From positions 1 through 45,699 of IMG/VR virus record IMGVR_UViG_3300031949_000070: a DNA stretch of 45,699 nt. The stretch is one strand, 5' to 3'. A program made the position numbers and the translations under genes. Numbering within the stretch: the stretch's first letter is position 1; each line of letters starts with the position of its first letter. The notes under the pieces are model-generated. The model saw only the letters and a list, made by a program, of their open reading frames with translations. It had not been told where the DNA came from and made no database searches. Source of the stretch: a virus. Of this stretch, positions 1 to 45,699 are shown piece by piece.

Positions 1-127
1 TGGGCAACCTTGACCTAGCGGGGCTGGCTGCCTACTGGAATGCAAAGAGCAAAAACCTCCAGGAGGTGTTCGGGGCGGATTTTCCCCTGATTGAGGCCGA
101 AAAGAATCGCATCAAGGCCAACTTGCA
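1..127. repeat. 127-bp terminal direct repeat (left copy); closes the contig into a ~45,572-bp circle
   Basis: Bases 1-127 (tgggcaaccttgacctagcgg...atcaaggccaacttgca) are repeated base-for-base as the last 127 bases of the window. An ORF reads seamlessly across the junction. Confidence 0.95.
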
Positions 128-2859: not shown

Positions 2860-2927
2860 GCCGGATTAGTTTAATGCAGAGCACCCGCAGAATCCGGGAG
2901 GCGCAAGTTCGATTCTTGCATCCGGCT
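2860..2927 (+). tRNA. tRNA-like gene with a non-canonical anticodon arm (GAA/Phe-like if read conventionally)
   Basis: Perfect 7-bp acceptor stem (GCCGGAT/ATCCGGC). Perfect T arm (GCAAG-TTCGATT-CTTGC). D stem GTTT/GAGC uses G-U pairs. The anticodon stem has only 4 bp (CCCG/CGGG), the loop is CAGAATC (A where U33 is expected), the variable region is short, and no CCA is encoded. Confidence 0.45.
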
Positions 2928-2934
2928 CTATTAA

Positions 2935-3039
2935 TTTAACAGGGAAAAGCATTATGCTACCTTCCCGGAAAAGCTGGTTGAAAGAATGATAAGCTGCTCC
3001 ACCAAGCTGGGGGATTTGGTACTTGACCCATTCAGATGA
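2935..3039 (+). pseudogene. Relic of a DNA methyltransferase (N4/N6 type, catalytic-to-SAM-binding segment only)
   Basis: The frame reads FNREKHYATFPEKLVERMISCSTKLGDLVLDPFR then a stop. The (H)xATFPxxL ... GDxVLDPF pattern normally continues xGSGTT. No upstream or downstream remainder is present. Confidence 0.5.
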
Positions 3040-3269
3040 ATAAAATGCAAATAAGACTTTTCCCTTAGACCACCAGGTTATAACCAGAACAAAACCATAA
3101 TTACCGGAAACGCTTGTCTGGTAAGGAAGGCCAGGCCGATATAAAAGACGAATCTGCAACATGTCTCAAACTTTTTAGACATGACCTGAATTTATAATAT
3201 ACGCTACGCCAAATGTAGCGGTAACGCCAATATCACTATAAATATTTGCACGGTAACGCTATTTTTTTA

Positions 3270-7694: not shown

Positions 7695-7864
7695 ATTCAG
7701 AAAAAGTTTTAAATTCGATAACCATCGCACGTGAATTTTTGGCCCAAGCGGATATTGTGATGGCCAATAGCAATGAATATTTTGGCAATAAGCATACCGC
7801 CCGGCTCCGCCGGTTATCAATGGAGCTAACACGGGCATTGGCAGAGTTGAGGAGGCCATTATGA
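7691..7864 (+). CDS. Hypothetical small protein (57 aa)
   Basis: Below the ORF-track cut-off. Its ATG overlaps the previous stop and its own stop overlaps the next ATG. Confidence 0.45.
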   Translation: MNSEKVLNSITIAREFLAQADIVMANSNEYFGNKHTARLRRLSMELTRALAELRRPL

Positions 7865-7975
7865 TTATGCACGCATTATCTGTCAAACAATCCTTTGCGT
7901 CACTGATTGCCCGTGGGCGCAAGACGAAAGAAACTCGTACTTGGAAGACGAAGTACCGGGGCGACCTGCTGATTT

Positions 7976-8018
7976 GCGCTTGTTTCAGTTCCCTCTTTAT
8001 AGGGAAGATAGCTGCAAT
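7976..8018 (+). repeat. CRISPR-repeat-like unit, copy A (GCGCTT + GTTTCAGTTCCCTCTTTATAGGGAAGATAGCTGCAAT)
   Basis: 42/43 identical to 40464-40506. Internal hairpin TTCCCT-CTTTAT-AGGGAA. The termini GTTTCAG...CTGCAAT are partially inverted. Confidence 0.85.
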
Positions 8019-8037
8019 GCCCGCAAGGGCAAAGGAG
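8019..8037 (+). promoter_or_regulatory. Hairpin-SD junction element (GCCCGCAAGGGC + AAAGGAG), copy 1 of 7
   Basis: 4-bp GC stem with a GCAA loop, directly abutting the RBS, 5 nt before ATG 8043. Confidence 0.7.
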
Positions 8038-8042
8038 AAAAA

Positions 8043-9170
8043 ATGAATATCCATGATGCGGCCAGGAACGGCCACACTGAAGCTGTAGCGTTGCTCCTGG
8101 CAAAGGGGGCAAAGGTTGAAGCTGCGGACAACAACGGCAATACCCCGCTGATAGTGGCGGCCAGGGAAGGCCACACTGAAACCGTAGCATTGCTCCTGGA
8201 AAAGGGAGCAAATATTGAAGCTGCGGATAAATACGGGAATACTCCGCTGATATTAGCGGCCTGGGAAGGCCACACTGAAGCCGTGGCGTTACTCTTGGCA
8301 AAGGGAGCAAATATTGAGGCTGCGGATAATGACGGGGATACTCCGCTGATATGGGCGGCCAGGGAAGGCCGCACTGAAGCCGTGGCATTGCTCCTGGCAA
8401 ATGGGGCAAAGGTTGAAGCTGCAAATAACTGCGGGGATACCCCGCTGATATTAGCGGCCGGGCATGGCCACACGGAAACCGTGGAGTTACTGAAAAAACA
8501 TATTGCCAATCTCATAAACTGCCGTCCAATGACCATAGCCGAGGAGCTGCAAATGCCAGAATTTGCCACCGATAAAATAAAATGTAAGCCATTCACGGCC
8601 ATTATTTCGGCTGGCTTACATTTAATAGCAATAGACCCGGCTTATGCCAAGCCGGTAGCTACAGCTCAATTTAAGCGCCCGCAGCGGGGCGATGGCATGA
8701 CTGGCAATGATATTATATTAGAGCGGGTAGATTATATCAGCCTTGAGGCTCTGTTGCGCTCACCGGGGACGGTAATCACTCTTGAGAACCACGCCAGGCG
8801 AATTCTTGTTATTGAGCGCCAATATTTGGGCAAGAATGCAAAAGTCTTTGGCGAACTTTGCTACTGGACTGGCAGGGTGGTGCAGAAGATAGCGGACATG
8901 GGTTTTGAAGTGGTGGAGGCCCCGGTATATCCGGCCAAGGGCAAGGGCTGCACCTCTTGGCTACAGGACGTGTTTGGCATACAGGGGAATTTGCCAAACA
9001 GCTCCACGATACAAGAAATGGCGCTCAGGATAGCACGGGAAGATAATCCGTATTATCTTTGGGATGAAGAAACTCAGGCGGCATCAAAAGAGTTTAAATT
9101 TAATTTTAATTATGATACTGCCATGGCTTATTGTATGGGGATGTGGTGGATTAAGAAGAATAAATTTTAA
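8043..9170 (+). CDS. Ankyrin-repeat protein running in frame into a RuvC-like resolvase (fusion ORF)
   Basis: ATG 8043 follows the hairpin-SD element. About five 33-aa ANK units (G.TPL..AA..GHTE.V.LLL.KGA..EA.D). There is no stop before the resolvase part. Confidence 0.7.
   Translation: MNIHDAARNGHTEAVALLLAKGAKVEAADNNGNTPLIVAAREGHTETVALLLEKGANIEAADKYGNTPLILAAWEGHTEAVALLLAKGANIEAADNDGDTPLIWAAREGRTEAVALLLANGAKVEAANNCGDTPLILAAGHGHTETVELLKKHIANLINCRPMTIAEELQMPEFATDKIKCKPFTAIISAGLHLIAIDPAYAKPVATAQFKRPQRGDGMTGNDIILERVDYISLEALLRSPGTVITLENHARRILVIERQYLGKNAKVFGELCYWTGRVVQKIADMGFEVVEAPVYPAKGKGCTSWLQDVFGIQGNLPNSSTIQEMALRIAREDNPYYLWDEETQAASKEFKFNFNYDTAMAYCMGMWWIKKNKF
8070..8500 (+). repeat. Tandem 99-bp (33-codon) ankyrin units, ~4.5 copies with high DNA identity
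   Basis: GGCCACACTGAAGC-type unit starts recur at 8070, 8169, 8268, 8367 and 8466, an exact 99-nt period. Confidence 0.85.
8553..9170 (+). CDS. RuvC-like Holliday-junction resolvase (possible independent internal start)
   Basis: GAGGAG RBS at 8541-8546 then ATG 8553. HLIAIDPAYAKP (catalytic Asp), LVIERQYLGKN (Glu) and a C-terminal NYDTAMAYCMG (DAxAxA-like). Confidence 0.55.
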   Translation: MPEFATDKIKCKPFTAIISAGLHLIAIDPAYAKPVATAQFKRPQRGDGMTGNDIILERVDYISLEALLRSPGTVITLENHARRILVIERQYLGKNAKVFGELCYWTGRVVQKIADMGFEVVEAPVYPAKGKGCTSWLQDVFGIQGNLPNSSTIQEMALRIAREDNPYYLWDEETQAASKEFKFNFNYDTAMAYCMGMWWIKKNKF

Positions 9171-9272
9171 GTCTGAAGATCGTGGGGCTTAAGCCTGGGT
9201 GTTAGAAGATATCAGGCCGGTTAAGCCATTTATGGCTAAGGGGAAAATGGGAATTTTTAAGGTGGACATACC

Positions 9273-9845
9273 ATGCCAGAACTTACCACTGATAAAATAA
9301 AGTGCGAGCCATTTAGAGCTACAATTTCGTCTGAACGCTGCTGGTGGAACCGGCAATCCGGTAAATATGGAGACACGTGCCGAAATTGCAAACGGGCGAA
9401 TATGCCAAAACCGGAAATGGTGAAATGTGTCCCAACATCAAAAAAGACACCACTAATATTTATATCAAAACCAAAACCTGAATCAAAAAAAGAGGAAAAA
9501 CTGATTATGCCAGAAAATCAACATGTAAAAAAATGTCGGACATGTGGCTATAAAATAGCAATAAAAGATGACCAATGCTCGGCTTGCTACCGGAAGGAAA
9601 AAGGCGTTACGATTACAAGCGTTCGTAGTAAGGCTAAAGAAGAGTCTATTAAAAAAATCTTGCCTAACGGAGAAATGGTGGGGTTGCTTTTTATAGATGA
9701 AGAGAAATCCATGTTGGATACTTTGCGCCAGAATGCCAAAGTAAATTATCGTACCCTGGAAGGGGAAATAATGTACCGATTGAAAATGTCAGTTTGCGAT
9801 GAACTCCCAAAAGAAAACAGTCGTAAATTTGAGGTAGAACCGTAA
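9273..9845 (+). CDS. Zinc-ribbon-containing hypothetical protein
   Basis: 190-aa ORF with Cys pairs (KC..., CRNC, CRTCGY...CSAC). Its N-terminal 19 aa are duplicated at 8553. Confidence 0.55.
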   Translation: MPELTTDKIKCEPFRATISSERCWWNRQSGKYGDTCRNCKRANMPKPEMVKCVPTSKKTPLIFISKPKPESKKEEKLIMPENQHVKKCRTCGYKIAIKDDQCSACYRKEKGVTITSVRSKAKEESIKKILPNGEMVGLLFIDEEKSMLDTLRQNAKVNYRTLEGEIMYRLKMSVCDELPKENSRKFEVEP

Positions 9846-23206: not shown

Positions 23207-24556
23207 TTAATGGATATTAAAGGTATCGCCTACTGTTGGCGCTTCCGTTGTAGCCGTGTACGTTAGTTTTTTGGTTGTGCCATCGTAGGCCGTAATATCA
23301 GTCGCCTGGTCTTTTAATACGCCGGAAGTCCAGATTATAATCCGGCCAATATAATGGTCATTTGTAGCTTCGGTCAAATCGGTGGTCATTGCAGTTGTGG
23401 ATAACGTTCCCGCAATGGCAGAACCAGTAACAATTACGTTGGCTGATTTTTTTAGCTTAGTGGCTGCGGTTGCATCACCATCTATTTGAATTACATTTCC
23501 TACAACCCAATCGGACAGTTTCTTTCCTATACTACCCACTGTAGACATTCCAGATGTTAGGGCACCCCAAATGTCCGCAACTAGTGTGCCGAAGCTGGTA
23601 AGCGTCCTGGTAGCCACCGCCCACACCGAGGCCGCTGTAATATCATTCAGGGAGTCCAGGGTTTGCTTTGTGCCACTAATACTGTAGCCGGTCTTACTCC
23701 CAGCGGCTACAATCACGCCATCAGTGCCGGTATCCGCCAAGATTGCTGCGGTGTCGGCTTTTACAGCGGCCACATCTGCCGGCAGGTTGGCTGCGTCTAA
23801 CTCGGCAAGCCTGGCTTCAGTGCATACCGAAGCTAAAGCAGCAGCACCAGCAGATAAATTATCAAGATACCCGGCTCGCAGTGCAGTAAGTCTTGTAATT
23901 AACGTATCTATATCAGCAGGAATATTGGCAGCAGCTAATTCATCTAAATAACCAGCCCTGGCCGCAGTTAGTCTAGCCAACAATGTATCAATATCTGCTG
24001 GTATATTGGCAGCAGCAAGTTCTGCAAGCCTAGCCTCAGTGCATACCGAAGCTAAAGCAGCATTATCTGTGCCTCGCATATCTGTATTTGCGGTGGTCGT
24101 ATCCACCAGCTTTACCCCCTCTACTTTATTTGTAGCAGGGTCGTATCCGGCATCGGCAAAATCTTTCCAATCAGTGCCAGATTGAGTATCTCCGCCAATC
24201 TGTAATATATCCGCCTGAAGGTAATCTGAGCCGGACACCAGCGAATCATAGACGTTGGCGGGGACTACCATAAACTCCTGCCATACCGGCAATGCCCCGC
24301 TTTTGCTCACCGCCACTTTCAGCCTACCCAGCGTCCCGGTATCGGTAGTATCCAGAGGCACATCGTAATAACCAAGTTCATCATGTGTAGCCCCGGCAGA
24401 ATTATTGGATTGGGCGATATCTCCGCCATTCTTGGAGAGCCGGATGTCGGCCTGGGCGAGAGTTAATCCCGTTTCGGCGGTTTTGCCGTCCGTGTCATCC
24501 ACAAACGGCCCCAGTTTTACAGTGGCCGCCGTGCTTTGTTTTAGAATTTGGCTCAT
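23207..24556 (-). CDS. Tail fibre protein with internal repeats
   Basis: 449 aa. Repeated ASVCTEARLAEL.AAN.PAD and AANIPADIDTL..RLTA.RAGYLD.L segments. Confidence 0.6.
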   Translation of the reverse strand: MSQILKQSTAATVKLGPFVDDTDGKTAETGLTLAQADIRLSKNGGDIAQSNNSAGATHDELGYYDVPLDTTDTGTLGRLKVAVSKSGALPVWQEFMVVPANVYDSLVSGSDYLQADILQIGGDTQSGTDWKDFADAGYDPATNKVEGVKLVDTTTANTDMRGTDNAALASVCTEARLAELAAANIPADIDTLLARLTAARAGYLDELAAANIPADIDTLITRLTALRAGYLDNLSAGAAALASVCTEARLAELDAANLPADVAAVKADTAAILADTGTDGVIVAAGSKTGYSISGTKQTLDSLNDITAASVWAVATRTLTSFGTLVADIWGALTSGMSTVGSIGKKLSDWVVGNVIQIDGDATAATKLKKSANVIVTGSAIAGTLSTTAMTTDLTEATNDHYIGRIIIWTSGVLKDQATDITAYDGTTKKLTYTATTEAPTVGDTFNIH

Positions 24557-34552: not shown

Positions 34553-34732
34553 TTAAGGTTTTCTCCTAACTGTTTTTTTCGTATCCTCAGTTTCTATTAT
34601 CCGCATCCCATCAATACGTCCCCTGTTTGGGTTATTTATGAAACAACTCTCATGTGCTTTACGATTATATTCATCTAACCAATCCTTTGGTTCCCCTGTC
34701 ATATTTTCTAGATAATAACAATATTTTTCCAT
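34553..34732 (-). CDS. Small hypothetical protein (59 aa)
   Basis: ATG overlaps the TerL stop (TAATG). Sequence begins MEKYCYYLENMTGEPKDWLDEYNRKAHE... Confidence 0.45.
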   Translation of the reverse strand: MEKYCYYLENMTGEPKDWLDEYNRKAHESCFINNPNRGRIDGMRIIETEDTKKTVRRKP

Positions 34733-37131
34733 TAATAATTCGATTCTGCCATTGGCACAGATTGCACTGGCGGCAACCAACCTACATTACGTTGATTTAC
34801 ATACCTAAAACAAGCATGATTATCCCACTTACCTTCAAGTATTTTATCCTTCATGCCCAATTTTTCTTCATTCACGAAAGAATCCCGCTCCATATTTTTG
34901 AAGGCATTCATAATCAATCTATTCTCAGGTATATCAAATATTCTCAATTTTGGCAATTTAAAAATGGGGTCTACCTTCAATAATTGCTTAATTTTATCAA
35001 TTCCAGCCGAAATTGAACCGAAAAATTTCTCCGAAGTCATTAATCCTGGTATAGCATTATTACCCCGCTTCAACTCTTTATAAATATTAATATCACCCAA
35101 AATTCGCAGGTTACTATTTGTTGAGGTATCACATACAGACCATCCAAGCCGATAATTTCTCTCTTGCGCTCGTTGAGCCAGCGCAAATTTTAATTCCTCA
35201 GTATCCACGGCTTGCTGATAACATCCAGTGATAAACTGAAGCCCTTCCCTATTTACAGCAACCTCAGTACACGCAGACGCCTTGGTTAAATGTGGGTCTA
35301 CCCCTCGATACACGATAAAACTATCATCCAGGTCAAACGGCTGAATCAAATGCAGCTTCTCGTTAAACAGATTACCATAAACCAAACCAGACAACGAGAC
35401 GAAGGCTCCCATAAGCCTCATCTTTATCGTAGGATAATCCAGTCCGGTTAAAATCTCCCTCAATGTTTCCAGTTTCGCATACCGATTACATATTGACGGC
35501 ATTTTAAAGCAGGATATCCGCACCCCGTCTTCTTTATCTAAAATATCCTCTTTTATCCATGTTAACCCCTCTGTAGGGGTCATACTAAATAAAATTTTTA
35601 ACCGGTCAGCCGTTATAAACCGGGCCTTGGTTTCCTCGTATTTATCCTTGTCCGGCTGCTCATCGAAAATAGCCCACTGTAACGGATTCCCCTGAAACCC
35701 TCTTGTATCCTGCTCATTGGTTTTAAATTGGACGGTACTTATTGGCCGCCGATCACCTGAATACAATGTAAGCGTTTTATACTCCGCTGACCAACTCTTT
35801 GACCAGTCCCCATCCAATAAAAATTTCTTAGGCAGCCACCTTTCCCATGCCTTCAGAATTATCATGTTCAGGGAAGTATTATCTACTCCCGTCACACGCC
35901 CATAAACCGGCCAAGAGGTAGGTAATTTACTTTTAGGATATATTCCCTCCAAACTTAACGGCAACTCTCCTGTAGACCATATAATGCCCTCTACAGTGGC
36001 AAGCGTTGTATTGTGATGAACCAAACCTCCGGCAAAATAATTATGATATTTTTCAACCTCAAAGTCATAAACTTCTTGTTGACAGGGAATCAAGTCGCAT
36101 GATACAATCTGATTACCTTCTACATATAAAGGAAATAAATTTGAATAACCTTCATGGTCTAAAAATTGATTCTGATCGTCTTCGTTATCTGATAGAGATT
36201 CAGAAGATGACTCAGAAACAGGCTGCAAAAGCTCTTGATGTTTATATTTCGACTGTTGAAAAGTGGTGTAAAAAACTTCACCTGTCAACTCAACGTCCTG
36301 GGCCTCGTCGTGGAGAACAACACCCGGATTGGAAGGGTGGATACAAACTGACAAAGGGTTATCAGTATGTTTATTGTCCTGAACATCCGAATTGCACGAA
36401 GTCCCGGTACGTTGCTGAACACCGGCTTGTAATGGAACAAAAAATTGGCCGTTTTTTAGAAAAACACGAGACTGTTCATCATATTGATGGAAATCGCCTG
36501 AACAACCATCCAAGTAATCTAATGGTTTTTCAGAACAATGCTGCTCATTTAAAACATGAGCTGACTGGGAAATGTCCAAACTGGACTCCTGAAGGCAAGG
36601 CAAGAACCCTTTTAGGCGCTCAACGGTGGCGTAATTACCGTCATTCATTAAAACACGGTGCAAATCAGCAGCCTCTACCCAGCGACCATCTGACATCGTT
36701 ATCCGATAACACCAATGAATTCCAGGTTTCTTAAATGGAGCGGAAGCATTTGCTATTACTTTTTTCCCCCCATCCCAGGCATATACCTTAAACGGTTTAC
36801 CTTCTTTAAAAAGCAAACCAATCGTTTTCGCACCATCAACTGTATCTATAACTGTTTGATAAGTAAGACATTTTCCACCCTGATTGCCCCCTCCCGCCAA
36901 TATTATAGGCACATCACTTAAATGCACATCCCGCTGACTATCCAATCTGCCCTGTGGCACATCCTCTGGCAGCAACCACTCTTCCAAAAATCGCTTATGT
37001 TCATCATCCACCACCCCATCCGATGGCAAATAATCCCAGAACGGCTCCTCTACATTCACCGAGGCCACAACCTTCTGCAACTCTGCCAACTTAACCATCA
37101 AATCAGACGTGGAAACATTGCTTAAATCCAT
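34732..37131 (-). CDS. terL: Terminase large subunit, interrupted in frame by an intein
   Basis: Walker A GGNQGGK|T is split between K87 and T375. Walker-B-like LQWAIFDEQP lies downstream. Removing residues 88-374 leaves a 512-aa TerL. Confidence 0.85.
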   Translation of the reverse strand: MDLSNVSTSDLMVKLAELQKVVASVNVEEPFWDYLPSDGVVDDEHKRFLEEWLLPEDVPQGRLDSQRDVHLSDVPIILAGGGNQGGKCLTYQTVIDTVDGAKTIGLLFKEGKPFKVYAWDGGKKVIANASAPFKKPGIHWCYRITMSDGRWVEAADLHRVLMNDGNYATVERLKGFLPCLQESSLDISQSAHVLNEQHCSEKPLDYLDGCSGDFHQYDEQSRVFLKNGQFFVPLQAGVQQRTGTSCNSDVQDNKHTDNPLSVCIHPSNPGVVLHDEAQDVELTGEVFYTTFQQSKYKHQELLQPVSESSSESLSDNEDDQNQFLDHEGYSNLFPLYVEGNQIVSCDLIPCQQEVYDFEVEKYHNYFAGGLVHHNTTLATVEGIIWSTGELPLSLEGIYPKSKLPTSWPVYGRVTGVDNTSLNMIILKAWERWLPKKFLLDGDWSKSWSAEYKTLTLYSGDRRPISTVQFKTNEQDTRGFQGNPLQWAIFDEQPDKDKYEETKARFITADRLKILFSMTPTEGLTWIKEDILDKEDGVRISCFKMPSICNRYAKLETLREILTGLDYPTIKMRLMGAFVSLSGLVYGNLFNEKLHLIQPFDLDDSFIVYRGVDPHLTKASACTEVAVNREGLQFITGCYQQAVDTEELKFALAQRAQERNYRLGWSVCDTSTNSNLRILGDINIYKELKRGNNAIPGLMTSEKFFGSISAGIDKIKQLLKVDPIFKLPKLRIFDIPENRLIMNAFKNMERDSFVNEEKLGMKDKILEGKWDNHACFRYVNQRNVGWLPPVQSVPMAESNY
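36079..36108 (+). promoter_or_regulatory. Sigma70-like promoter TTGACA-N18-TACAAT, antisense to terL and upstream of the HNH gene body
   Basis: Hexamers at 36079-84 and 36103-08. They lie inside the coding sequence of the intein C-terminal splicing domain. Confidence 0.5.
36099..36734 (+). CDS. HTH + HNH homing endonuclease encoded antisense within the intein
   Basis: HTH is MTQKQAAKALDVYISTVEKWCKKL. HNH part is GYQYVYCPEHPN...YVAEHRLVMEQKIGRFLEKHETVHHIDGNRLNNHPSNLMVFQNNAAHLKH. The start is uncertain: ATG 36099, TTG 36141 (AAGGAA RBS, downstream of the promoter) or ATG 36207. Confidence 0.8.
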   Translation: MIQSDYLLHIKEINLNNLHGLKIDSDRLRYLIEIQKMTQKQAAKALDVYISTVEKWCKKLHLSTQRPGPRRGEQHPDWKGGYKLTKGYQYVYCPEHPNCTKSRYVAEHRLVMEQKIGRFLEKHETVHHIDGNRLNNHPSNLMVFQNNAAHLKHELTGKCPNWTPEGKARTLLGAQRWRNYRHSLKHGANQQPLPSDHLTSLSDNTNEFQVS

Positions 37132-39359: not shown

Positions 39360-39390
39360 CTCAGGAAAAGGACAGTAGTCAAATCATAAA

Positions 39391-39409
39391 GCCCGAAAGG
39401 GCAAAGGAG
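39391..39409 (+). promoter_or_regulatory. Hairpin-SD junction element (GCCCGAAAGGGC + AAAGGAG), copy 2
   Basis: Followed 5 nt later by GTG 39415. Confidence 0.7.
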
Positions 39410-39414
39410 AAAAC

Positions 39415-39735
39415 GTGAGTATCAAGATTGTAGTAGAGAAAGTTTTAACAGTTGAAAAAGAGAAGGGTTTAAAAATTGTCAGCATATCAGGAGTGCTGGC
39501 ACAAGAAGAACTCCCGAAGGAGTTTAAGAAGGGGAAGTTTGCTTACAGAATGGGGAAAAGTGGGATTTACTTCCCCCATCTTCCGAATATGGTTATTGGG
39601 GAGACGGAAACAAAAGAAAGCTTAGAAACTCAACTTGAGTTTCTAAGGGAGTCCGGGCAGAAGCTACATGAAATTAATAAGAAGTTGGCAATAGAGAATG
39701 CCAACTGGAGAGGAGGTGAGACATATATTGTCTAG
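39415..39735 (+). CDS. Hypothetical protein (106 aa)
   Basis: GTG start positioned after the hairpin-SD element. Confidence 0.5.
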   Translation: MSIKIVVEKVLTVEKEKGLKIVSISGVLAQEELPKEFKKGKFAYRMGKSGIYFPHLPNMVIGETETKESLETQLEFLRESGQKLHEINKKLAIENANWRGGETYIV

Positions 39736-39741
39736 GCCGAA

Positions 39742-39774
39742 ACCGCCTTCGGGCGGTCTGCCCGTTTTGCGGGC
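39742..39774 (+). terminator. Two consecutive GC stem-loops after the gene (ACCGCC-TTCG-GGCGGT and GCCCG-TTTTG-CGGGC)
   Basis: Read directly from the sequence. No U-tract follows, so they may act in processing or stability rather than as intrinsic terminators. Confidence 0.4.
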
Positions 39775-39794
39775 ACTGATGAGGCAAATTTAAC

Positions 39795-39806
39795 GCCCGC
39801 AAGGGC
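39795..39806 (+). promoter_or_regulatory. Hairpin GCCCGCAAGGGC, copy 3 (orphan: no SD or gene follows)
   Basis: Preceded by the conserved TTTAAC and followed by AAATTTGGGC instead of AAAGGAG. Confidence 0.6.
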
Positions 39807-39908
39807 AAATTTGGGCATAGTTGTCAGATGGGATTTACTGGAATTTGTGATGGTCATTGTATATACTTTTCTAATAAAAATTGTGAGCATGTGCAATTTC
39901 ATATTGCT

Positions 39909-40035: not shown

Positions 40036-40446
40036 ATGAAATACATAACAGCAACAGAACCACCCAAATTTACCAATATGCAAATGGCCATGGCAAAGCG
40101 CCTGGGACTAAATCTTTCAGATTTAGATCCAAATGATAAAAGATTAAGAATAGACTATCCTCCTCTGGGATATTATAGCTTTTCCAAAGCTATAAGGGAA
40201 ATTGCAGGAAAGCACCAGGACATTGTATCCAGGGGGGGAGGTAGGAATTTTTATTACATCTCTTTAAGTAAGAGCTGTAATAAGTTAATTACTATGATAA
40301 GAGGGCTTCAGCAAGAAGCTCCTCAAAGAGAGGGTGCAAAAGAGCTTCGTCTGATGTGGGGAAAGGAACTCCACAAAATCTGGACGGACGAACTCAAATA
40401 CACAGCTGGATATTGGCACTTGGGGTGGGTAGAGCTTGAGAGATAA
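40036..40446 (+). CDS. Hypothetical protein, paralogue A1 (136 aa)
   Basis: Shares GYYSFSKAI.EI.GK.QDIVSRGGGRNFYYISLS.SC.KLI..IR.LQ.E.PQRE.AKELR.MWGKEL...W..EL.Y.A.YWHLGWVEL with 41796..42239. Confidence 0.65.
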   Translation: MKYITATEPPKFTNMQMAMAKRLGLNLSDLDPNDKRLRIDYPPLGYYSFSKAIREIAGKHQDIVSRGGGRNFYYISLSKSCNKLITMIRGLQQEAPQREGAKELRLMWGKELHKIWTDELKYTAGYWHLGWVELER

Positions 40447-40463
40447 ACTCTCAAGCTGATGAG

Positions 40464-40506
40464 GCGCTTGTTTCAGTTCCCTCTTTATAGGGAAGATATC
40501 TGCAAT
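40464..40506 (+). repeat. CRISPR-repeat-like unit, copy B
   Basis: GCGCTTGTTTCAGTTCCCTCTTTATAGGGAAGATATCTGCAAT, one mismatch against 7976-8018. Confidence 0.85.
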
Positions 40507-40677
40507 AGCGGATGGGGTGCGAGGAGTCTGGCCCGGTTGATGGGCTGCGGAAGTGGCACACCCGTCATGAAGGAATTGAAAGGCAAAGCAGAGATGTAGT
40601 ATATCTGCTCAACAATATAGAAGACGACGGGGGGAAATAACAAAACTCGCCTGGTGCAGCGAGCATAAACAAAGCCC

Positions 40678-40702
40678 AGTCCCTACGAAGAGGGAACTTA
40701 AC
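40678..40702 (-). repeat. Inverted, degenerate copy of the 5' part of the CRISPR-repeat-like unit
   Basis: The minus strand reads GTTAAGTTCCCTCTTCGTAGGGACT against GTTTCAGTTCCCTCTTTATAGGGAAG. It keeps the same TCCCT/AGGGA hairpin. Confidence 0.6.
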
Positions 40703-40767
40703 CAAATACAGTATATGTAATTTTAAAAGATAAACAAAAACTGAATTTGAGGAAACAGTATAAAAAG

Positions 40768-41602: not shown

Positions 41603-41795
41603 AAAATATACCGGCGGGCAAGGCTGGTTGTTCTTGCCCTGTTAGCGGCGGTTGTATTGGCTGTGGTGATATATCAATTGTGTGGGCTGCGGCGGAGTGG
41701 CGGTCGGCGGCGCAGGGCTAGGGTCATCACCGAAAAGCGGATAACCTCGCCGCCTGCCCTGCTCAATCTTGAGTTAGCCAGAGGAGGCTATTATT

Positions 41796-42239
41796 ATGAA
41801 ATACGTACCAGCAGCAGAACCTTCAAGTCTTACCAGAGCTCAAACTTGGCAAGCGAAGCGCCAGGGACTAAAACTGTCAGCCAGGGCGGTGGCCGCCTGG
41901 GAAAGACTAGAAAGAGGGGAGACGATCGGATATTATAGCTTTTCCAAAGCTATAAAAGAAATCGAAGGGAAGCCCCAGGACATTGTGTCCAGGGGAGGGG
42001 GAAGAAACTTTTACTATATATCACTAAGCCGTAGCTGTAAAAAATTGATTTCAATTATAAGGGAACTTCAGCTGGAAGTTCCCCAAAGAGAAAATGCGAA
42101 AGAACTTCGCATAATGTGGGGCAAGGAACTCCAAAAATACTGGAGAAAGGAGCTGATGTATAAGGCCAGGTACTGGCACCTGGGGTGGGTAGAGTTACCT
42201 GCCGAAGGAAAAAACAGAAGTGAAGGCTGCAATAAATAA
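41796..42239 (+). CDS. Hypothetical protein, paralogue A2 (147 aa)
   Basis: Paralogue of 40036..40446 with a GAGGAGG RBS. Confidence 0.65.
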   Translation: MKYVPAAEPSSLTRAQTWQAKRQGLKLSARAVAAWERLERGETIGYYSFSKAIKEIEGKPQDIVSRGGGRNFYYISLSRSCKKLISIIRELQLEVPQRENAKELRIMWGKELQKYWRKELMYKARYWHLGWVELPAEGKNRSEGCNK

Positions 42240-42402
42240 ATAAATAAATTGATCAAAATTATAAGAGAGCTTCACAGCGAGCCTAAACAAAGCTCACCGG
42301 GGACGGGGTGCGAGGAGTCTGGTTTCGTTTTCGGCTCCGGTTCCGGGGATGGGGTGCGGATATTTTAATTTATTTGCGTTATGGTGATTGCAACAACTTA
42401 AC

Positions 42403-42421
42403 GCCCGCAAGGGCAAAGGAG
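42403..42421 (+). promoter_or_regulatory. Hairpin-SD junction element (AACTTAAC + GCCCGCAAGGGC + AAAGGAG), copy 4
   Basis: Followed by ATG 42428. Confidence 0.7.
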
Positions 42422-42427
42422 AAAAGC

Positions 42428-42643
42428 ATGTGGTACGCAGAACGTTTGATAAATGATGGAAGAGCAGATTTGACAGATAAAAAAGGGAAGGTCGATCAGC
42501 GAAAAGCTAATTTAATCCGAATCTTGGGCAATGCTCAGTTACATTTAGTCAAACCTTATCCAAGTGCTTGGGGATATTTTGATAATTATGTTAAAGCGTT
42601 AAGGTCTATACAACTGAACGAGTTCCCATCTGAGCGTGATTAA
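42428..42643 (+). CDS. Hypothetical small protein (71 aa)
   Basis: ATG positioned after the hairpin-SD element. The longer ORF-track form (42308) would read through repeat debris. Confidence 0.55.
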   Translation: MWYAERLINDGRADLTDKKGKVDQRKANLIRILGNAQLHLVKPYPSAWGYFDNYVKALRSIQLNEFPSERD

Positions 42644-42651
42644 ACCCAAAG

Positions 42652-42732
42652 TTGGCGGCCAGGGGAGGCCGCACTGAAGTTGTGACATTGCTGAAAAACC
42701 ATATTGCCAAAACCGGCAAGCAAATAACTTAA
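42652..42732 (+). pseudogene. Orphan 3' relic of an ankyrin-repeat gene
   Basis: Reads LAARGGRTEVVTLLKNHIAKTGKQIT then a stop. Nearly identical at the DNA level to the GCGGCCAGGGAAGGCCGCACTGAAGCCGTGGCATTGCT units of the intact gene at 8043. Confidence 0.75.
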
Positions 42733-42733
42733 C

Positions 42734-42745
42734 GCCCGTAAGGGC
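42734..42745 (+). promoter_or_regulatory. Hairpin GCCCGTAAGGGC, copy 5 (degenerate SD; GAGG further downstream)
   Basis: Preceded by ATAACTTAAC. ATG 42765 follows. Confidence 0.6.
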
Positions 42746-42764
42746 AAGAAATGAGGTCATTCGC

Positions 42765-42970: not shown

Positions 42971-43120
42971 ATGTACGATGATTATGATGATTATTACGCT
43001 AGTGTAGACGCCAATGAACGTAAGGTTGAACGCCGCTGGCGGTGGGCACTGGCGATACTCATTACGGCAATTGTTACCGCAATTGTCTGGCAATTGTTTT
43101 TTATCTATGGGGGAAAATAA
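42971..43120 (+). CDS. Small single-TM protein (49 aa)
   Basis: Not in the ORF track. Sequence is MYDDYDDYYASVDANERKVERRWRWALAILITAIVTAIVWQLFFIYGGK. Its stop overlaps the next ATG. Confidence 0.5.
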   Translation: MYDDYDDYYASVDANERKVERRWRWALAILITAIVTAIVWQLFFIYGGK

Positions 43121-43452
43121 TGGAAATCGGGGACGTATTGTGGAAGTTGCGAAAGCGGTCGGGGCTGGCGCAAAGGAATATTGAAAAATCTTGCGGGCTG
43201 AAACGAGCACATCTGTCCAAGATAGAAACTAACGGACTTAAAAACCCGACTATCAAGACTGTGAGAAAAATTGTGGGGGCGCTTGGGCTGAAAATGTCGG
43301 ATGTGTTTCTGTTCTTGGAGCAAAACAAAATCTCGGAAGCCGTAGCCGAAAAGTTCCAGCGGCCCCCGGTTAACACGGAGACGCTCAGGGAAACAGAGAA
43401 GGCCATTGTATCCTTAGAGGCCACGCATAACGCTGGCAAATGTGTACGATAA
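43120..43452 (+). CDS. XRE-family HTH regulator (110 aa)
   Basis: Start taken at MEIGDVLWKLRKRSGLAQRNIEKSCGLKRAHLSKIETNGLKNPTIKTVRKI, a typical HTH_3 pattern. Confidence 0.7.
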   Translation: MEIGDVLWKLRKRSGLAQRNIEKSCGLKRAHLSKIETNGLKNPTIKTVRKIVGALGLKMSDVFLFLEQNKISEAVAEKFQRPPVNTETLRETEKAIVSLEATHNAGKCVR

Positions 43453-43459
43453 GCTGACA

Positions 43460-43534
43460 ATGGCGGCCAAGTATGGCCGCACTAAAGTCGTGGCATTGCT
43501 GAAAAACCATAATATTGCCAAAACTGGCAAATAA
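43460..43534 (+). pseudogene. Second orphan 3' relic of an ankyrin-repeat gene
   Basis: Reads MAAKYGRTKVVALLKNHNIAKTGK then a stop. It has the same tail and the same downstream ATAACTTAAC-hairpin junction as the relic at 42652. Confidence 0.7.
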
Positions 43535-43540
43535 CTTAAC

Positions 43541-43560
43541 GCCCGAAAGGGCAAAGGAGG
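43541..43560 (+). promoter_or_regulatory. Hairpin-SD junction element (GCCCGAAAGGGC + AAAGGAGG), copy 6
   Basis: Followed by ATG 43565. Confidence 0.7.
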
Positions 43561-43564
43561 AAAC

Positions 43565-43855
43565 ATGACGCTACTGGACAAACTCCGGGGCGATAAAAAG
43601 TTGGCGGTAGAAGGTGGCAAAACTGAAACGTTCTTTGCCCCGCCTCAGTTGAGAGCAGATAAGCGGGTCATGGCGGTTGGCAGGATTGACCCCCGCACTA
43701 AGCGAATTACCTTGTATGAGATATGCAGGCAGGAACCGCCCGTGGACATGGAAGAGTACGCACGGCGATTATTGGGGCAACCGTTGCCGGATAAAAAAGC
43801 CGGTAACGTCATCGGTACAGAGAATCAAAGTGCAAGGTTCCATACCAAACCATAA
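43565..43855 (+). CDS. Hypothetical protein (96 aa)
   Basis: ATG positioned after the hairpin-SD element. Confidence 0.55.
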   Translation: MTLLDKLRGDKKLAVEGGKTETFFAPPQLRADKRVMAVGRIDPRTKRITLYEICRQEPPVDMEEYARRLLGQPLPDKKAGNVIGTENQSARFHTKP

Positions 43856-43997
43856 ATGAGGCGACCCATCCAGAAAAAGCATTTGGCCTGACTTCTCAGA
43901 GCGCTTCCGCCGCTGATTGTGGCTAGGGAGCGCTCCCGAACGGCGGCCACCTCACCGCCTGCCACAAGGGGATAATCAAAATGAAAAGGAATAAAAA

Positions 43998-44695: not shown

Positions 44696-45699
44696 ATGAG
44701 CGAAAAACAAGAAATTTTTGACGGGGAAATGCTGCCAGCAACGAGAGCAGATGAGGCTCAAGTTCCGGTCGCTACTGAGATGTACGTTGGGGCATTATCC
44801 CGGTTCAAACTGCACAAAAAGATGGTTCAAGAGGTTATTAATTACACCGAGGCGCACGACTGGTTTAATTACGGCAAGGTTGTCCGGTTGTCAGCCCCCC
44901 GGTCAGAGTCTATATATCGGATTTTGGGATTACAGGCATTCAACCTGAAGCGGGAGCGGCAAGAACTCCCCAACGGGTATTATCAGTATATGGTCACCGC
45001 AGATGTAGGATTCAGCGCAGGGCAGACCCTTAATGTCGTAGGTTTCTGCCGGGCGTCAAAGCCCTTGTTTGCAACGAAAAATAAAGAGTCCGTACCTGCT
45101 GATGATATTGACGAGGGAAATGTTATTAAAAATGCGGACTCAGATTTCATAGTAAACGCAGTTGGGCGATTCGCCGGAATTCGGGGACTTACTCCAGAAG
45201 ATATTGAACGCCTGTCAATCGGAAAAATAAAGGCGGCCAATATGCAGAAAGTAGACTTCGGGGGCCGGGCGGTAGAGCGCAGCGAAGAGGAAAGCGGCCA
45301 GGCCGAATCAACCTGGCAGCAGCTCCTTGAGATGAACGGTCAATCTGTGGAAAAGGCCAAGTCGCAGCTACAGAAACTCACCGCCTTTACGGGCAAGGAC
45401 GGCAAGCAGTTTACTGGGTATACCGACATTAAAAAGGTCAGCGCCGGGGTGCTTAAAAACCTGGTGGGCAAGGTGGCGAACCTACATAAAACCTGGCTAA
45501 AGGAATCCTGTGGCGGTAATCAGCAGCAAGGGGAAGCCCCGGAGATTACCCTTGAATCAGTATCCGCCGAAATGGGCAACCTTGACCTAGCGGGGCTGGC
45601 TGCCTACTGGAATGCAAAGAGCAAAAACCTCCAGGAGGTGTTCGGGGCGGATTTTCCCCTGATTGAGGCCGAAAAGAATCGCATCAAGGCCAACTTGCA
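44696..45699 (+). CDS. Recombination-module protein, possible single-strand annealing protein; 3' end lies across the circular junction
   Basis: ATG at 44696. It is absent from the ORF track because no stop is reached before the window ends. The frame is open to 45699 and continues through the repeat to TAA 150-152 (342 aa in total). Its stop overlaps the exonuclease start (ATGGCTAA). Function is inferred only from its position directly upstream of a PD-(D/E)XK exonuclease. Confidence 0.7.
   Translation, partial: MSEKQEIFDGEMLPATRADEAQVPVATEMYVGALSRFKLHKKMVQEVINYTEAHDWFNYGKVVRLSAPRSESIYRILGLQAFNLKRERQELPNGYYQYMVTADVGFSAGQTLNVVGFCRASKPLFATKNKESVPADDIDEGNVIKNADSDFIVNAVGRFAGIRGLTPEDIERLSIGKIKAANMQKVDFGGRAVERSEEESGQAESTWQQLLEMNGQSVEKAKSQLQKLTAFTGKDGKQFTGYTDIKKVSAGVLKNLVGKVANLHKTWLKESCGGNQQQGEAPEITLESVSAEMGNLDLAGLAAYWNAKSKNLQEVFGADFPLIEAEKNRIKANL
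45573..45699. repeat. 127-bp terminal direct repeat (right copy)
   Basis: Identical to 1-127 by direct comparison. Confidence 0.95.

What the first reader, a model, noticed from the sequence alone, without database searches (positions are those of the whole stretch)
40464..40702. Solitary CRISPR-repeat-like units: candidate RNA anti-CRISPR, mini-array remnant or MITE termini
Seen in sequence:
- A 37-nt unit, GTTTCAGTTCCCTCTTTATAGGGAAGATA(G/T)CTGCAAT, occurs at 7982-8018 and at 40470-40506. Counting 6 shared upstream bases, 42 of 43 positions are identical.
- Its length, its internal hairpin (TTCCCT/AGGGAA) and its GTTTCAG...CTGCAAT termini (reverse strand ATTGCAG...CTGAAAC) resemble CRISPR repeats.
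- A degenerate inverted copy of its first 25 nt lies ~175 nt downstream of copy B, at 40678-40702.

Established knowledge: phages can carry solitary repeat units that act as RNA-based anti-CRISPRs by mimicking host repeats.

Inference: the forward plus inverted pair could alternatively be the terminal inverted repeats of a ~240-bp MITE-like element. Copy A coincides exactly with the truncation point of an ASCH gene, which suggests the unit marks an insertion boundary.
Basis: partly seen in the sequence, partly recalled or inferred. Interest (0 to 1): 0.65.

Follow-up and report, generated by a model that had tools for sequence, protein, structure and literature searches.

The report
Solitary CRISPR repeats in a phage
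A cas-less phage genome carries two near-identical solitary copies, plus one partial inverted copy, of a genuine 37-nt class 1 CRISPR repeat; this fits the known class of phage solitary repeat units, some of which act as RNA anti-CRISPR decoys, but function here is unproven.

Summary
The 37-nt unit occurs at 7982-8018 and 40470-40506 (36/37 identical, plus 6 shared upstream bases), and a diverged inverted copy of its first 26 nt lies at 40680-40705.

It is a real CRISPR repeat. Metagenome and genome arrays next to type I-B-like and type III-B cas genes carry 37-nt repeats of the same architecture, up to 31/37 identical. A covariance model trained only on those array repeats scores both units at about 40.5 bits, inside the natural range.

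The crRNA sense is the window's minus strand, which is antisense to the phage genes around both units. The phage has no array and no recognisable cas gene.

Unit A sits exactly at the left junction of a ~1.2-kb ankyrin cassette that replaces the middle of an ASCH gene. The ASCH C-terminal remnant survives at 9193-9273.

The MITE and tracrRNA readings are rejected. The best reading is a phage solitary repeat unit and candidate RNA anti-CRISPR, with unit B the likelier active copy and unit A a recombination-borne duplicate.

Still missing: no exact host repeat was found, expression and strand are untested, and the predicted promoter is at chance level. This is a new member of a known kind, of moderate interest.

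The parts
7982..8018 (-). Unit A: full 37-nt CRISPR repeat. The crRNA sense on the minus strand reads ATTGCAGCTATCTTCCCTATAAAGAGGGAACTGAAAC.
   Evidence: Exact match. The array-trained model R1 scores it at 40.6 bits, E 7.6e-10, over model positions 1-37 on the minus strand. It folds like natural repeats.
7976..7981 (+). GCGCTT, the 6 nt shared upstream of both units. At copy A it overlaps the last ASCH codons (TGC GCT).
   Evidence: family D13; ASCH homology runs to nt 7980.
40470..40506 (-). Unit B: full 37-nt CRISPR repeat, 36/37 identical to unit A, lying in a 322-nt intergenic region.
   Evidence: Model R1 scores it at 40.5 bits, E 8.4e-10, on the minus strand.
40680..40705 (+). Partial diverged copy in the opposite orientation. 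On the plus strand it reads as a crRNA-sense hairpin plus a degenerate handle: TCCCT-ACGAAG-AGGGA-ACTTAACC.
   Evidence: 22/26 match, reached by 0 of 300 random windows. Model R1 scores 40679-40698 on the plus strand at 17.9 bits, E 0.005, model positions 13-32.
40614..40643 (-). Promoter-like site TTGTTA-18-TATATT. It would drive minus-strand (crRNA-sense) transcription into unit B, about 100 nt downstream.
   Evidence: Consensus match only: 4 sites found against 4.8 expected in shuffles.
40645..40664 (-). Terminator-like hairpin plus T-run on the minus strand, between the partial copy and the promoter-like site.
   Evidence: 6 terminator-like sites found against 1.8 expected.
40433..40457 (.). 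Perfect 10-bp hairpin (AGCTTGAGAG/CTCTCAAGCT) straddling the stop codon of ORF136, 12 nt from unit B.
7861..7980 (+). ASCH gene, N-terminal 40 codons. Homology stops 1 nt before unit A.
   Evidence: Pfam ASCH, profile positions 1-46 of 103. tblastn to viral ASCH homologs ends at residue 40.
8019..9170 (+). Inserted cassette to the right of unit A: the hairpin/RBS motif GCCCGCAAGGGCAAAGGAG followed by the ankyrin-repeat gene (8043-9170).
   Evidence: (family D7).
9193..9273 (+). ASCH C-terminal remnant (AWVLEDIRPVKPFMAKGKMGIFKVDIP), preceded by an in-frame stop codon.
   Evidence: tblastn with the L245 ASCH homolog, residues 117-144, E 0.017. Sequence and translation.
40514..40531 (+). Block Y (GGGGTGCGAGGAGTCTGG), native phage sequence that is also found downstream of the paralog ORF147 (42305-42322).
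   Evidence: 18/18 identical.
40657..40675 (+). Block X (CAGCGAGCATAAACAAAGC), native phage sequence that lies upstream of Y in the paralog region (42275-42293) but downstream of Y here.
   Evidence: 18/19 identical.

Best explanation
What it is (shown). The unit is a genuine class 1 CRISPR direct repeat. It is 37 nt long and, in crRNA sense, has a 3' hairpin followed by the 8-nt handle ACUGAAAC. It belongs to a repeat family found in arrays next to type I-B-like and type III-B cas genes. Here it occurs as two solitary full copies and one partial inverted copy in a ~45.6-kb podovirus-like phage genome that has no array and no recognisable cas gene. That makes it a phage-borne solitary repeat unit (SRU).

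How it most likely works (inferred). Unit B would be transcribed from the minus strand as a small RNA consisting of about 100 nt of leader followed by the repeat hairpin. The host Cas6 would bind and cleave this hairpin as if it were pre-crRNA. The resulting RNA lacks a proper 5' handle and spacer context, so it would sequester Cas6 and Cas7 in aberrant complexes and compete with the host's real crRNAs. This is the RNA anti-CRISPR (Racr) decoy mechanism.

Unit A is most likely a secondary copy of the same 43-nt segment. It ended up at the left junction of an ankyrin gene cassette that replaced the middle of the ASCH gene, in a region that shuffles cassettes by recombination at short shared sequences. 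Whether unit A is itself expressed in crRNA sense is doubtful.

The confidence of 0.5 refers to the Racr-decoy function. Confidence that the unit is a CRISPR repeat carried as a solitary unit is about 0.95.
For: Repeat identity:
- Two-anchor scans recovered at least 120 arrays in genomes and at least 120 in metagenomes with the same 37-nt architecture.
- The closest repeats are 31/37 identical (L222, L151), and 25-26 of the first 26-27 nt are identical in L151 and L208.
- A covariance model built only from 41 array repeats finds both units over their full length at 40.6 and 40.5 bits (E about 8e-10). Array repeats outside the training set score about 25-50 bits.
- The predicted fold is the same two-tier hairpin as in natural repeats.

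Cas type and orientation:
- Arrays of this family flank type I-B-like operons (L098, L134) and a Cmr2/Cmr3 module (L150). In all three the ...CTGAAAC reading runs in the same direction as the cas genes.
- Conserved AT-rich leaders lie upstream of the first repeat in that same orientation.

Solitary, on a phage without cas genes:
- There is no second direct copy near either unit.
- No Cas domains were found in the phage proteins tested or in the precomputed Pfam hits.
- The genome has an SU10-type portal and an intein-containing terminase-like ORF.

Racr-like layout of unit B:
- It is intergenic.
- A minus-strand promoter-like site lies about 110 nt upstream of the repeat in crRNA sense, preceded by a minus-strand terminator-like hairpin.
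- In RacrIF1 the inhibitory product is likewise the RNA from the transcription start to the Cas6 cleavage site (PMC10651486).

Sequence conservation:
- The stem is intact in all three copies, and differences fall in the loop, the handle or the tail.
- Copies A and B are 36/37 identical although their contexts are unrelated.
Against: - No array with the identical repeat was found in the viral, genome or metagenome collections. The best natural identity, 84%, is below the 90% SRUFinder cut-off.
- The host is unknown, and no spacer in about 240 retrieved arrays matches the phage.
- Both full units are antisense to the surrounding plus-strand gene blocks, so the abundant phage transcripts would carry the anti-repeat, not the mimic.
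- The minus-strand promoter call is at chance frequency (4 found against 4.8 expected). Unit A has no minus-strand promoter-like site within 250 nt.
- Position 1 of the repeat is G in at least 90% of natural repeats but A in both phage copies.
- No acr or aca genes are recognisable nearby.
- No other viral contig carries this repeat subfamily.
- Expression was not testable.
Confidence: 0.5

Rival explanations
1. Recombination relic. The repeat entered the phage through recombination with a host CRISPR array (crossover between a spacer and its protospacer) or is the last trace of a decayed phage mini-array. It then spread within the genome as a 43-nt segment during cassette shuffling. Today it has no anti-CRISPR function, or serves only as a short homology patch for recombination.
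For: - Unit A lies exactly at a mosaic junction: ASCH residues 1-40, then the unit, then the ankyrin cassette, then the ASCH C-terminal remnant.
- The left flanks of both units share GCTGAT(TT/GAG)GCGCTT, which suggests microhomology-mediated copying.
- The accessory region is visibly mosaic. It has paralogous ORF136 and ORF147, permuted X and Y blocks, ankyrin-repeat fragments at 42648-42703 and 43456-43511, and a 20-residue N-terminal segment shared by the ankyrin ORF and ORF190.
- The units are antisense to their operons, and unit A has no promoter of its own.
- The G1-to-A change departs from a nearly invariant family position.
Against: - Copies A and B remain 36/37 identical, with intact hairpin and handle, and score like functional array repeats. 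A neutral relic would be expected to decay, as the partial copy has.
- The sequence on both sides of each unit is phage-type. Capture from an array would therefore need two crossovers in adjacent phage-matching spacers, and for unit A the ASCH C-terminus lies beyond the cassette, which fits an insertion rather than a simple array-mediated deletion.
- No captured leader is present.
Confidence: 0.25
2. Antisense or 'self' mimicry. Because the units are antisense to crRNA, the phage's plus-strand mRNAs carry a perfect anti-repeat. This could act in two ways. It could place the anti-tag GUUUCAGU directly 3' of a protospacer, so that a type III complex treats the transcript as 'self' (and, for type I, so that repeat sequence replaces the PAM). 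Or it could base-pair with host pre-crRNA repeats or handles and block Cas6 processing. The partial copy, paired with unit B, would form a repeat:anti-repeat duplex.
For: - Orientation: the crRNA sense is the minus strand, while both units lie in plus-strand gene blocks.
- The mRNA at unit A reads ...CUGCUGAUUUGCGCUU-GUUUCAGU, which is an exact complement of the ACUGAAAC tag immediately 3' of coding sequence.
- The family is used by type III-B loci (L150).
- Unit B and the partial copy are predicted to pair over 26 nt on either strand.
- Tag:anti-tag pairing as the type III self-recognition signal is established knowledge (Marraffini and Sontheimer 2010; cited from memory, not checked here).
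Against: - Anti-tag protection would cover only the single protospacer that abuts each unit.
- No host spacer matching the flanks was found.
- I know of no precedent for a natural antisense anti-repeat RNA acting against class 1 systems.
- The structure z-scores are inflated by the inverted repeat itself.
Confidence: 0.1
3. crRNA-like regulatory RNA or single-repeat guide. Unit B plus the sequence 3' of it (in minus sense) would be processed into a handle-bearing RNA that loads into host effectors and redirects them, for example to silence host defence genes, as described for viral crlRNAs.
For: - Viral crlRNAs that hijack Cas effectors exist (bioRxiv 10.1101/2024.10.29.618823).
- Type III crRNAs need only a 5' handle, because their 3' ends are trimmed (my own knowledge).
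Against: - There is no second direct (pseudo)repeat at spacer distance.
- The would-be 'spacer' is the antisense of the phage's own ORF136 3' end and is mostly a perfect 10-bp hairpin.
- No target could be identified.
Confidence: 0.05
4. MITE-like element of about 240 bp bounded by unit B and its inverted partial copy.
For: Inverted arms with 22/26 complementarity lie 173 nt apart.
Against: - There is no target-site duplication (flanks ...GAGGCGC and ATACAGT...).
- No other copy of the unit or the element exists in the window or in any collection.
- The arm is a bona fide CRISPR repeat with exact repeat boundaries.
- The interior contains native blocks X and Y, which are shared with the paralog region.
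- Unit A has no inverted partner.
Confidence: 0.03

Closest known systems
Viral solitary repeat units (SRUs) and RNA anti-CRISPRs (Racrs; Camara-Wilpert et al. 2023, PMC10651486; SRUs first catalogued by Faure et al. 2019)
   Same: A single CRISPR repeat on a virus without cas genes. It is not part of an array, it keeps the Cas6-type hairpin, and unit B is intergenic with a possible upstream promoter and roughly 100 nt of 5' RNA before the hairpin, like RacrIF1.
   Different: - There are two dispersed full copies plus an inverted partial copy.
- Both full copies are antisense to the flanking operons.
- Best identity to any retrieved natural repeat is 84% (below the 90% cut-off).
- Host and expression are unknown.
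- No acr neighbour is recognisable.
- One copy lies at a gene-disrupting cassette junction.
Class 1 CRISPR repeats of the 37-nt GTYGCAG...CCC-GATGAAG-GGGR-ACTGAAAC family, seen here in arrays next to type I-B-like and type III-B cas genes from Anaerolineae/Chloroflexota, Acidobacteriota, Dethiobacter, Methanothrix and many metagenomes. Related ...GGGGACTGAAAC repeats occur in Nostocales.
   Same: Length, hairpin register, the CAG/CUG outer pairing, the ACUGAAAC handle and a loop of the xATxAAG type. The covariance-model score falls within the natural range.
   Different: The units are solitary rather than in an array. The first base is A instead of the nearly invariant G. The tail sequence (GCTATC) is unique, and no cas genes are nearby.
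Viral crRNA-like RNAs and mini-arrays (CreR/CreA mimics; bioRxiv 10.1101/2024.10.29.618823)
   Same: Phage-borne, repeat-derived RNA elements proposed to subvert host Cas proteins.
   Different: Those elements have two direct (pseudo)repeats flanking a pseudo-spacer with partial complementarity to a target. Here the only nearby second copy is inverted and 173 nt away.
tracrRNA anti-repeat:repeat pairs of type II systems
   Same: An imperfect inverted copy of the first ~25 nt of a repeat lies close to the repeat. The plus strand weakly resembles Rfam CRISPR-DR34 (22 bits).
   Different: The repeat family is associated with class 1 cas genes, the phage has no Cas9 or Cas12, no nexus or terminator hairpins follow the anti-repeat, and the Rfam score is far below the gathering threshold.

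Membership tests
CRISPR direct repeat (class 1, 37-nt ...GGGRACTGAAAC family) | Same length and sequence/structure profile as repeats from bona fide arrays | tested here: met
   Model R1, built from 41 array repeats, scores the units at 40.6 and 40.5 bits over positions 1-37. Natural repeats outside the training set score about 25-50 bits. The closest repeats are 31/37 identical.
CRISPR direct repeat (class 1, 37-nt ...GGGRACTGAAAC family) | 3' hairpin followed by an 8-nt handle in crRNA sense | tested here: met
   TTCCCT/AGGGAA stem followed by ACTGAAAC. The fold ....(((.....((((((......))))))))).... matches that of the natural L089 repeat.
CRISPR direct repeat (class 1, 37-nt ...GGGRACTGAAAC family) | Occurs as a regularly spaced array with spacers, usually near cas genes | tested here: not met
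   The two full copies are 32.5 kb apart, there is no direct copy at spacer distance, and no Cas domains were found in the phage.
Solitary repeat unit (SRUFinder definition, PMC10651486) | Located in an intergenic region of a virus or plasmid | tested here: met
   Unit B lies in the 322-nt gap between ORF136 and ORF157. Unit A is formally inside the read-through tail of the truncated ASCH ORF, but beyond the end of ASCH homology.
Solitary repeat unit (SRUFinder definition, PMC10651486) | At least 90% identity and at least 90% coverage to a known CRISPR repeat | tested here: not met
   The best match among repeats retrieved here is 31/37 (84%) at full coverage. The strict pattern found nothing in three collections. 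The SRUFinder repeat database itself could not be queried.
Solitary repeat unit (SRUFinder definition, PMC10651486) | No other full or partial repeat within 100 bp | tested here: met
   The nearest other copy is the partial inverted one, 173 nt from unit B. Nothing lies near unit A.
Racr (RNA anti-CRISPR) | Promoter within about 250 bp upstream, in repeat (crRNA) sense | tested here: inconclusive
   Unit B has a minus-strand TTGTTA-18-TATATT site at 40643-40614, but such sites occur at chance frequency. Unit A has none within 250 nt. The host promoter type is unknown.
Racr (RNA anti-CRISPR) | Expressed as a small RNA and bound or processed by the cognate Cas6 (or Cas5/Cas12...) | not testable with these tools
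   No transcriptome or biochemical data are available.
Racr (RNA anti-CRISPR) | The host carries a CRISPR-Cas system of the matching subtype | tested here: inconclusive
   The host is unknown. The family is used by I-B-like and III-B loci, but no spacer in the retrieved arrays targets the phage.
Racr (RNA anti-CRISPR) | Frequent co-location with acr/aca genes (a supportive feature, not a defining one) | tested here: not met
   The neighbouring ORFs have no PHROG or Pfam hits. The only HTH protein is at 43120-43452, about 2.6 kb away. No Acr-specific library was available.
MITE | Terminal inverted repeats with a flanking target-site duplication | tested here: not met
   The arms match at 22/26, but the flanks (GAGGCGC and ATACAGT) show no duplication.
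MITE | Multiple bounded copies within or across genomes | tested here: not met
   No further copy is found in the window or in the viral, genome or metagenome collections.
Type II repeat plus tracrRNA anti-repeat | Repeat family associated with Cas9, with a tracrRNA scaffold 3' of the anti-repeat | tested here: not met
   Arrays of this family flank class 1 cas genes. The large phage ORFs have no Cas9 domains. The sequence after 40705 is AT-rich and unstructured.
Viral mini-array / crlRNA | Two direct (pseudo)repeats flanking a spacer-sized segment | tested here: not met
   There is no direct partial copy within 100 nt of either unit.

The most novel reading that the evidence does not exclude
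The units may act in the sense in which the phage operons transcribe them, that is, as anti-repeats. In this reading a phage acquired a host CRISPR repeat by recombination next to its own protospacers. Its mRNAs then present the exact anti-tag (GUUUCAGU), or a non-PAM repeat flank, so that type III or type I effectors treat the target as 'self'. Alternatively the anti-repeat RNA hybridises to host pre-crRNA repeats and blocks Cas6 maturation. In either form this would be an anti-CRISPR strategy based on antisense or self mimicry rather than on decoy binding.
Probability: 0.1. Interest if true: 0.8.

Novelty: new member of a known kind. Interest (0 to 1): 0.4.

Why it matters
If unit B is an active Racr, it would extend RNA-based anti-CRISPR mimicry to the 37-nt ACUGAAAC-handle repeat family that type I-B and III-B systems share in environmental bacteria and archaea (Chloroflexota, Acidobacteriota, Methanothrix). 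To my knowledge no Racr has been tested for these hosts, and type III was not among the functionally tested cases I could see in PMC10651486.

The locus also shows a captured CRISPR repeat being duplicated and carried along during cassette shuffling inside a phage genome, where one copy splits an ASCH gene.

The antisense orientation of both full copies raises a concrete, testable question: do captured repeats always act as sense decoys?

Tried and rejected
- **tracrRNA/type II idea.** This was prompted by a weak plus-strand Rfam DR34 hit and the inverted partial copy. I rejected it because the arrays of this family flank class 1 cas genes and the phage has no Cas9 or Cas12.
- **Second hammerhead ribozyme.** The left flank of unit B contains CTGATGAGGC, which is identical to part of the Hammerhead_II hit at 39776-39785. 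There is no GAAA/stem II arrangement and no Rfam hit at E up to 5, so I rejected it.
- **Captured CRISPR leader upstream of unit B.** The sequence has no similarity to the conserved leaders of this family.
- **Exact host repeat.** The strict pattern found 0 hits in the viral, genome and metagenome collections.
- **Spacer-to-phage matches.** Across about 240 retrieved arrays there were only chance-level matches of 20 nt or less.
- **Relatives of the phage, to see ancestral states.**
  - ORF136 has no homolog except its own paralog among 5.8 billion proteins.
  - The viral-contig scan with ORF136 found none.
  - DUF5131 relatives are at most 42% identical and not syntenic.
  - The intergenic-motif scan hit one unrelated contig.
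- **Other viral solitary units of this family.** The relaxed pattern gave 2 chance hits in coding sequence, and the family-core pattern gave 0.
- **Sample source.** A literature search for SRR9005073 found nothing.
- **Conserved peptide across the units.** The two read-through frames differ, so the unit is not a coding repeat.
Full report
**1. The observation**

The 37-nt unit GTTTCAGTTCCCTCTTTATAGGGAAGATA(G/T)CTGCAAT is present at 7982-8018 and 40470-40506. No match is expected by chance. With six shared upstream bases (GCGCTT), the duplicated segment is 43 nt long and 42/43 identical.

A third, diverged copy covers only the first 26 nt. It lies in inverted orientation at 40680-40705 and matches at 22/26. 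None of 300 Markov-1 random windows reached that score.

The window has a 127-bp direct terminal repeat, so it looks like a complete circular or terminally redundant genome of about 45.6 kb. It encodes an SU10-type portal and a terminase-like ORF containing an intein. Cultured phages are only about 22% identical over the portal.

The window is contig k141_5950790 of ENA assembly ERZ27256953. In a Logan assembly of SRR9005073, the contigs break exactly at the repeat: one ends at window 40493, and two begin at 40469 and 7981. Each of those two carries its own G/T variant and downstream flank, with no mismatches. Both junctions are therefore real and not an assembly chimera. I could not tell whether the ENA assembly was built from the same reads as the Logan one.

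**2. It is a genuine CRISPR repeat**

Rfam gave only sub-threshold hits, but all were to CRISPR-DR families. The strict pattern found nothing in the viral, genome or metagenome collections.

A two-anchor pattern (handle plus stem start, twice, at array spacing) recovered at least 120 arrays in GTDB genomes and at least 120 in JGI metagenomes. Their consensus repeats share the unit's architecture: 37 nt, GTTTCAGT, a 5-6-bp CCC/GGG stem, a 6-8-nt loop and a roughly 12-nt tail ending CTGCRAC. The closest are listed below.

| Locus | Repeat | Identity to unit |
|---|---|---|
| L222 | GTTTCAGTTCCCTCTTCATTGGGATGATGTCTGCAAC | 31/37 |
| L151 | GTTTCAGTTCCCTCTTCATAGGGAAGAGAAGTGTAAG | 31/37 |

In L151 and L208 the hairpin-plus-handle half differs from the unit by a single loop base.

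I then built a covariance model from 41 array repeats only, excluding the phage. With filters off, it found unit A and unit B over their full length at 40.6 and 40.5 bits (E about 8e-10), and the partial copy at 17.9 bits (E about 0.005). The next hit is at chance level. Array repeats outside the training set score about 25-50 bits, and degenerate terminal repeats score about 21-24 bits. The predicted fold of the unit is the same two-tier hairpin as in a natural repeat.

One caveat applies to the model. Eleven of the 37 model positions are invariant because my search pattern required them, so the informative agreement is at positions 1-25. There the unit matches the consensus GTTGCA...TCCC.AT.AA.A except at position 1, which is G in at least 90% of natural repeats and A in the phage.

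**3. Cas type and strand**

Arrays of this family lie next to type I-B-like operons (Cas7/Cst2-DevR, Cas5b, Cas3, Csa1/Cas4, Cas1) in L098 and L134, and next to Cmr2/Cmr3 plus Cas1 in L150. In all three, the reading ...GGGRACTGAAAC runs in the same direction as the cas genes. Conserved AT-rich leader sequences lie directly upstream of the first repeat in that same orientation.

The crRNA sense of the phage units is therefore the minus strand: ATTGCAG(C/A)TATC-TTCCCT-ATAAAG-AGGGAA-CTGAAAC, that is, a 3' hairpin plus an ACUGAAAC handle. The model finds the two full units on the minus strand and the partial copy on the plus strand. Both full units lie inside the plus-strand gene block that runs from about 38.8 kb across the genome ends to about 9.8 kb. 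They are therefore antisense to their neighbours.

No Cas domain was found in any phage protein examined or in the precomputed Pfam annotations.

**4. Context of unit A**

The 61-codon ORF at 7861-8046 matches only the first 46 of 103 positions of the ASCH profile. Its homology to ASCH genes in distantly related viral contigs ends exactly at residue 40, which is nt 7980.

The C-terminal end of ASCH survives at 9193-9273 as AWVLEDIRPVKPFMAKGKMGIFKVDIP, which matches residues 117-144 of the L245 homolog. An in-frame stop codon precedes it.

So unit A, the hairpin/RBS motif GCCCGCAAGGGCAAAGGAG and the ankyrin-repeat gene (8043-9170) together replace about 76 ASCH codons. Unit A is the left junction of this ~1.2-kb replacement. 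No unit-like sequence is present at the right junction.

The region is strongly mosaic:
- The hairpin/RBS motif recurs at least six times.
- Ankyrin-repeat fragments lie just upstream of two of those motifs, at 42648-42703 and 43456-43511.
- The ankyrin ORF contains a 20-residue stretch that is 70% identical to the N-terminus of the next gene.

**5. Context of unit B**

Unit B lies in a 322-nt non-coding gap between ORF136 and ORF157. It is 12 nt downstream of a perfect 10-bp hairpin that straddles the ORF136 stop codon.

Between unit B and the partial copy, the minus strand carries a terminator-like hairpin with a T-run (40664-40645). Immediately after it is a promoter-like site, TTGTTA-18-TATATT (40643-40614), which would transcribe about 100 nt and then unit B in crRNA sense. 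These are consensus matches only, and the number of promoter-like sites equals the chance expectation.

ORF136 has a paralog, ORF147, and comparing their downstream regions gives two results:
- The unit is absent from the paralog.
- Two native blocks, X and Y, are adjacent in the paralog but flank the inner segment in permuted order in region B. I have no model for this permutation.

The loops also carry information. Natural repeats have CTTCAT, the full units have CTTTAT, and the partial copy has CTTCGT. This suggests all copies derive from a CTTCAT-type ancestor, and that A and B, which share the derived T and the 6-nt flank, are duplicates of each other.

**6. Interpretation**

Identity is settled: this is a class 1 CRISPR repeat carried as solitary units on a phage without cas genes. 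That is the definition of a viral solitary repeat unit (SRU), a class of which 2,103 viral examples were catalogued and of which several act as RNA anti-CRISPRs (PMC10651486).

I consider a Racr-type decoy the most likely function, with unit B the candidate active copy. It is intergenic, its hairpin and handle are intact, and on the minus strand it has a promoter-like site followed by about 100 nt and then the repeat. This resembles RacrIF1, where the RNA from the transcription start to the Cas6 cleavage site is the inhibitor. Unit A would be a duplicate carried along by cassette recombination.

This functional step is inferred, not shown. The evidence against it is:
- the antisense orientation of both full units;
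- a promoter call at chance level;
- no promoter near unit A;
- only 84% identity to the nearest retrieved repeat, below the 90% SRUFinder cut-off;
- an unknown host;
- no spacer links to the phage;
- no recognisable acr or aca neighbour;
- the G1-to-A change.

The rival readings are:
- **Recombination relic.** This is supported by the junction position and the mosaic context, and weakened by the near-perfect conservation of A and B.
- **Antisense or self mimicry.** The phage mRNAs carry the exact anti-tag GUUUCAGU directly 3' of coding sequence, and the family serves type III-B systems. This is the most novel reading that the evidence does not exclude.
- **crRNA-like guide.** The required architecture of two direct repeats is not met.
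- **MITE.** There is no target-site duplication, no other copy, and the interior is native phage sequence.
- **tracrRNA-like pair.** The repeat family belongs to class 1 systems and the phage has no Cas9.

**7. Novelty and score**

This is a new member of a known kind (viral SRU and Racr candidate). Its unusual details are two dispersed copies plus an inverted partial copy, the antisense placement, and a copy that forms a gene-splitting cassette junction. None of these yet demonstrates a new mechanism. Interest is moderate (0.4). The antisense or self-mimicry reading would be of high interest but has a low probability (about 0.1).

Noticed in passing
window 39735-39793 (+): Type II hammerhead ribozyme hit above the Rfam gathering score (40.4 bits against 37). 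It lies directly after the stop codon of the 106-codon ORF and directly before a copy of the GCCCGCAAGGGC hairpin/RBS motif, so it could process the early polycistronic mRNA.
   Followed up: partly
window 41711-41778 (+) and 43916-43983 (+): Two int-alpA RNA motif hits (39.9 and 36.0 bits; gathering score 35.8) in the accessory gene block, although no integrase was recognised in the genome.
   Followed up: no
window 8016-8051, 39388-39423, 39781-39808, 42389-42435, 42720-42747, 43527-43573 (+): A recurrent intergenic motif, (TTAAC)GCCCGNAAGGGCAAAGGAG, about 6-7 nt upstream of start codons. It is a GNRA-type tetraloop hairpin fused to a Shine-Dalgarno sequence. It is probably a lineage-specific translation or processing signal and a recombination patch for cassette shuffling. 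It was found in only one unrelated viral contig.
   Followed up: partly
window 40036-40446 vs 41796-42239; X/Y blocks at 40514-40531, 40657-40675, 42275-42322: ORF136 and ORF147 are paralogs with no homologs elsewhere among 5.8 billion proteins. The 173 nt between unit B and its partial copy look like a circular permutation of the sequence downstream of the paralog: if circularised, X and Y would rejoin at exactly the paralog's 11-nt spacing. This is unexplained.
   Followed up: partly
window 42648-42703 and 43456-43511 (+): Fragments about 70-85% identical to the last ankyrin repeat of the 8043-9170 gene. They lie just upstream of two intergenic motifs and are likely remnants of earlier ankyrin cassettes.
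   Followed up: no
window 8553-8613 vs 9273-9333 (+): The ankyrin ORF contains an internal stretch, MPEFATDKIKCKPFTAIIS, that is 70% identical to the N-terminus of the downstream 190-codon ORF. This suggests the ankyrin gene is a fusion formed by recombination.
   Followed up: partly
window 2860-2927 (+): Rfam tRNA hit (46.2 bits against a gathering score of 29), but ARAGORN finds no tRNA in the window. It overlaps a minus-strand ORF (2866-3162). It may be a tRNA-like element or a degenerate tRNA.
   Followed up: no
window 34732-37131 (-): A 799-codon ORF next to the portal gene with an intein splicing domain at residues 110-374. It is probably a large terminase interrupted by an intein.
   Followed up: no
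window 1-127 and 45573-45699: A perfect 127-bp direct terminal repeat. The contig is a circularly closed, or terminally redundant, complete genome.
   Followed up: no
window 23774-24062 (-, within ORF 23207-24556): Tandem repeats of about 81 nt and a 219-nt-spaced repeat (70-81% identity) inside a 449-codon structural-region ORF. They suggest a repetitive fibre or coiled-coil protein.
   Followed up: no
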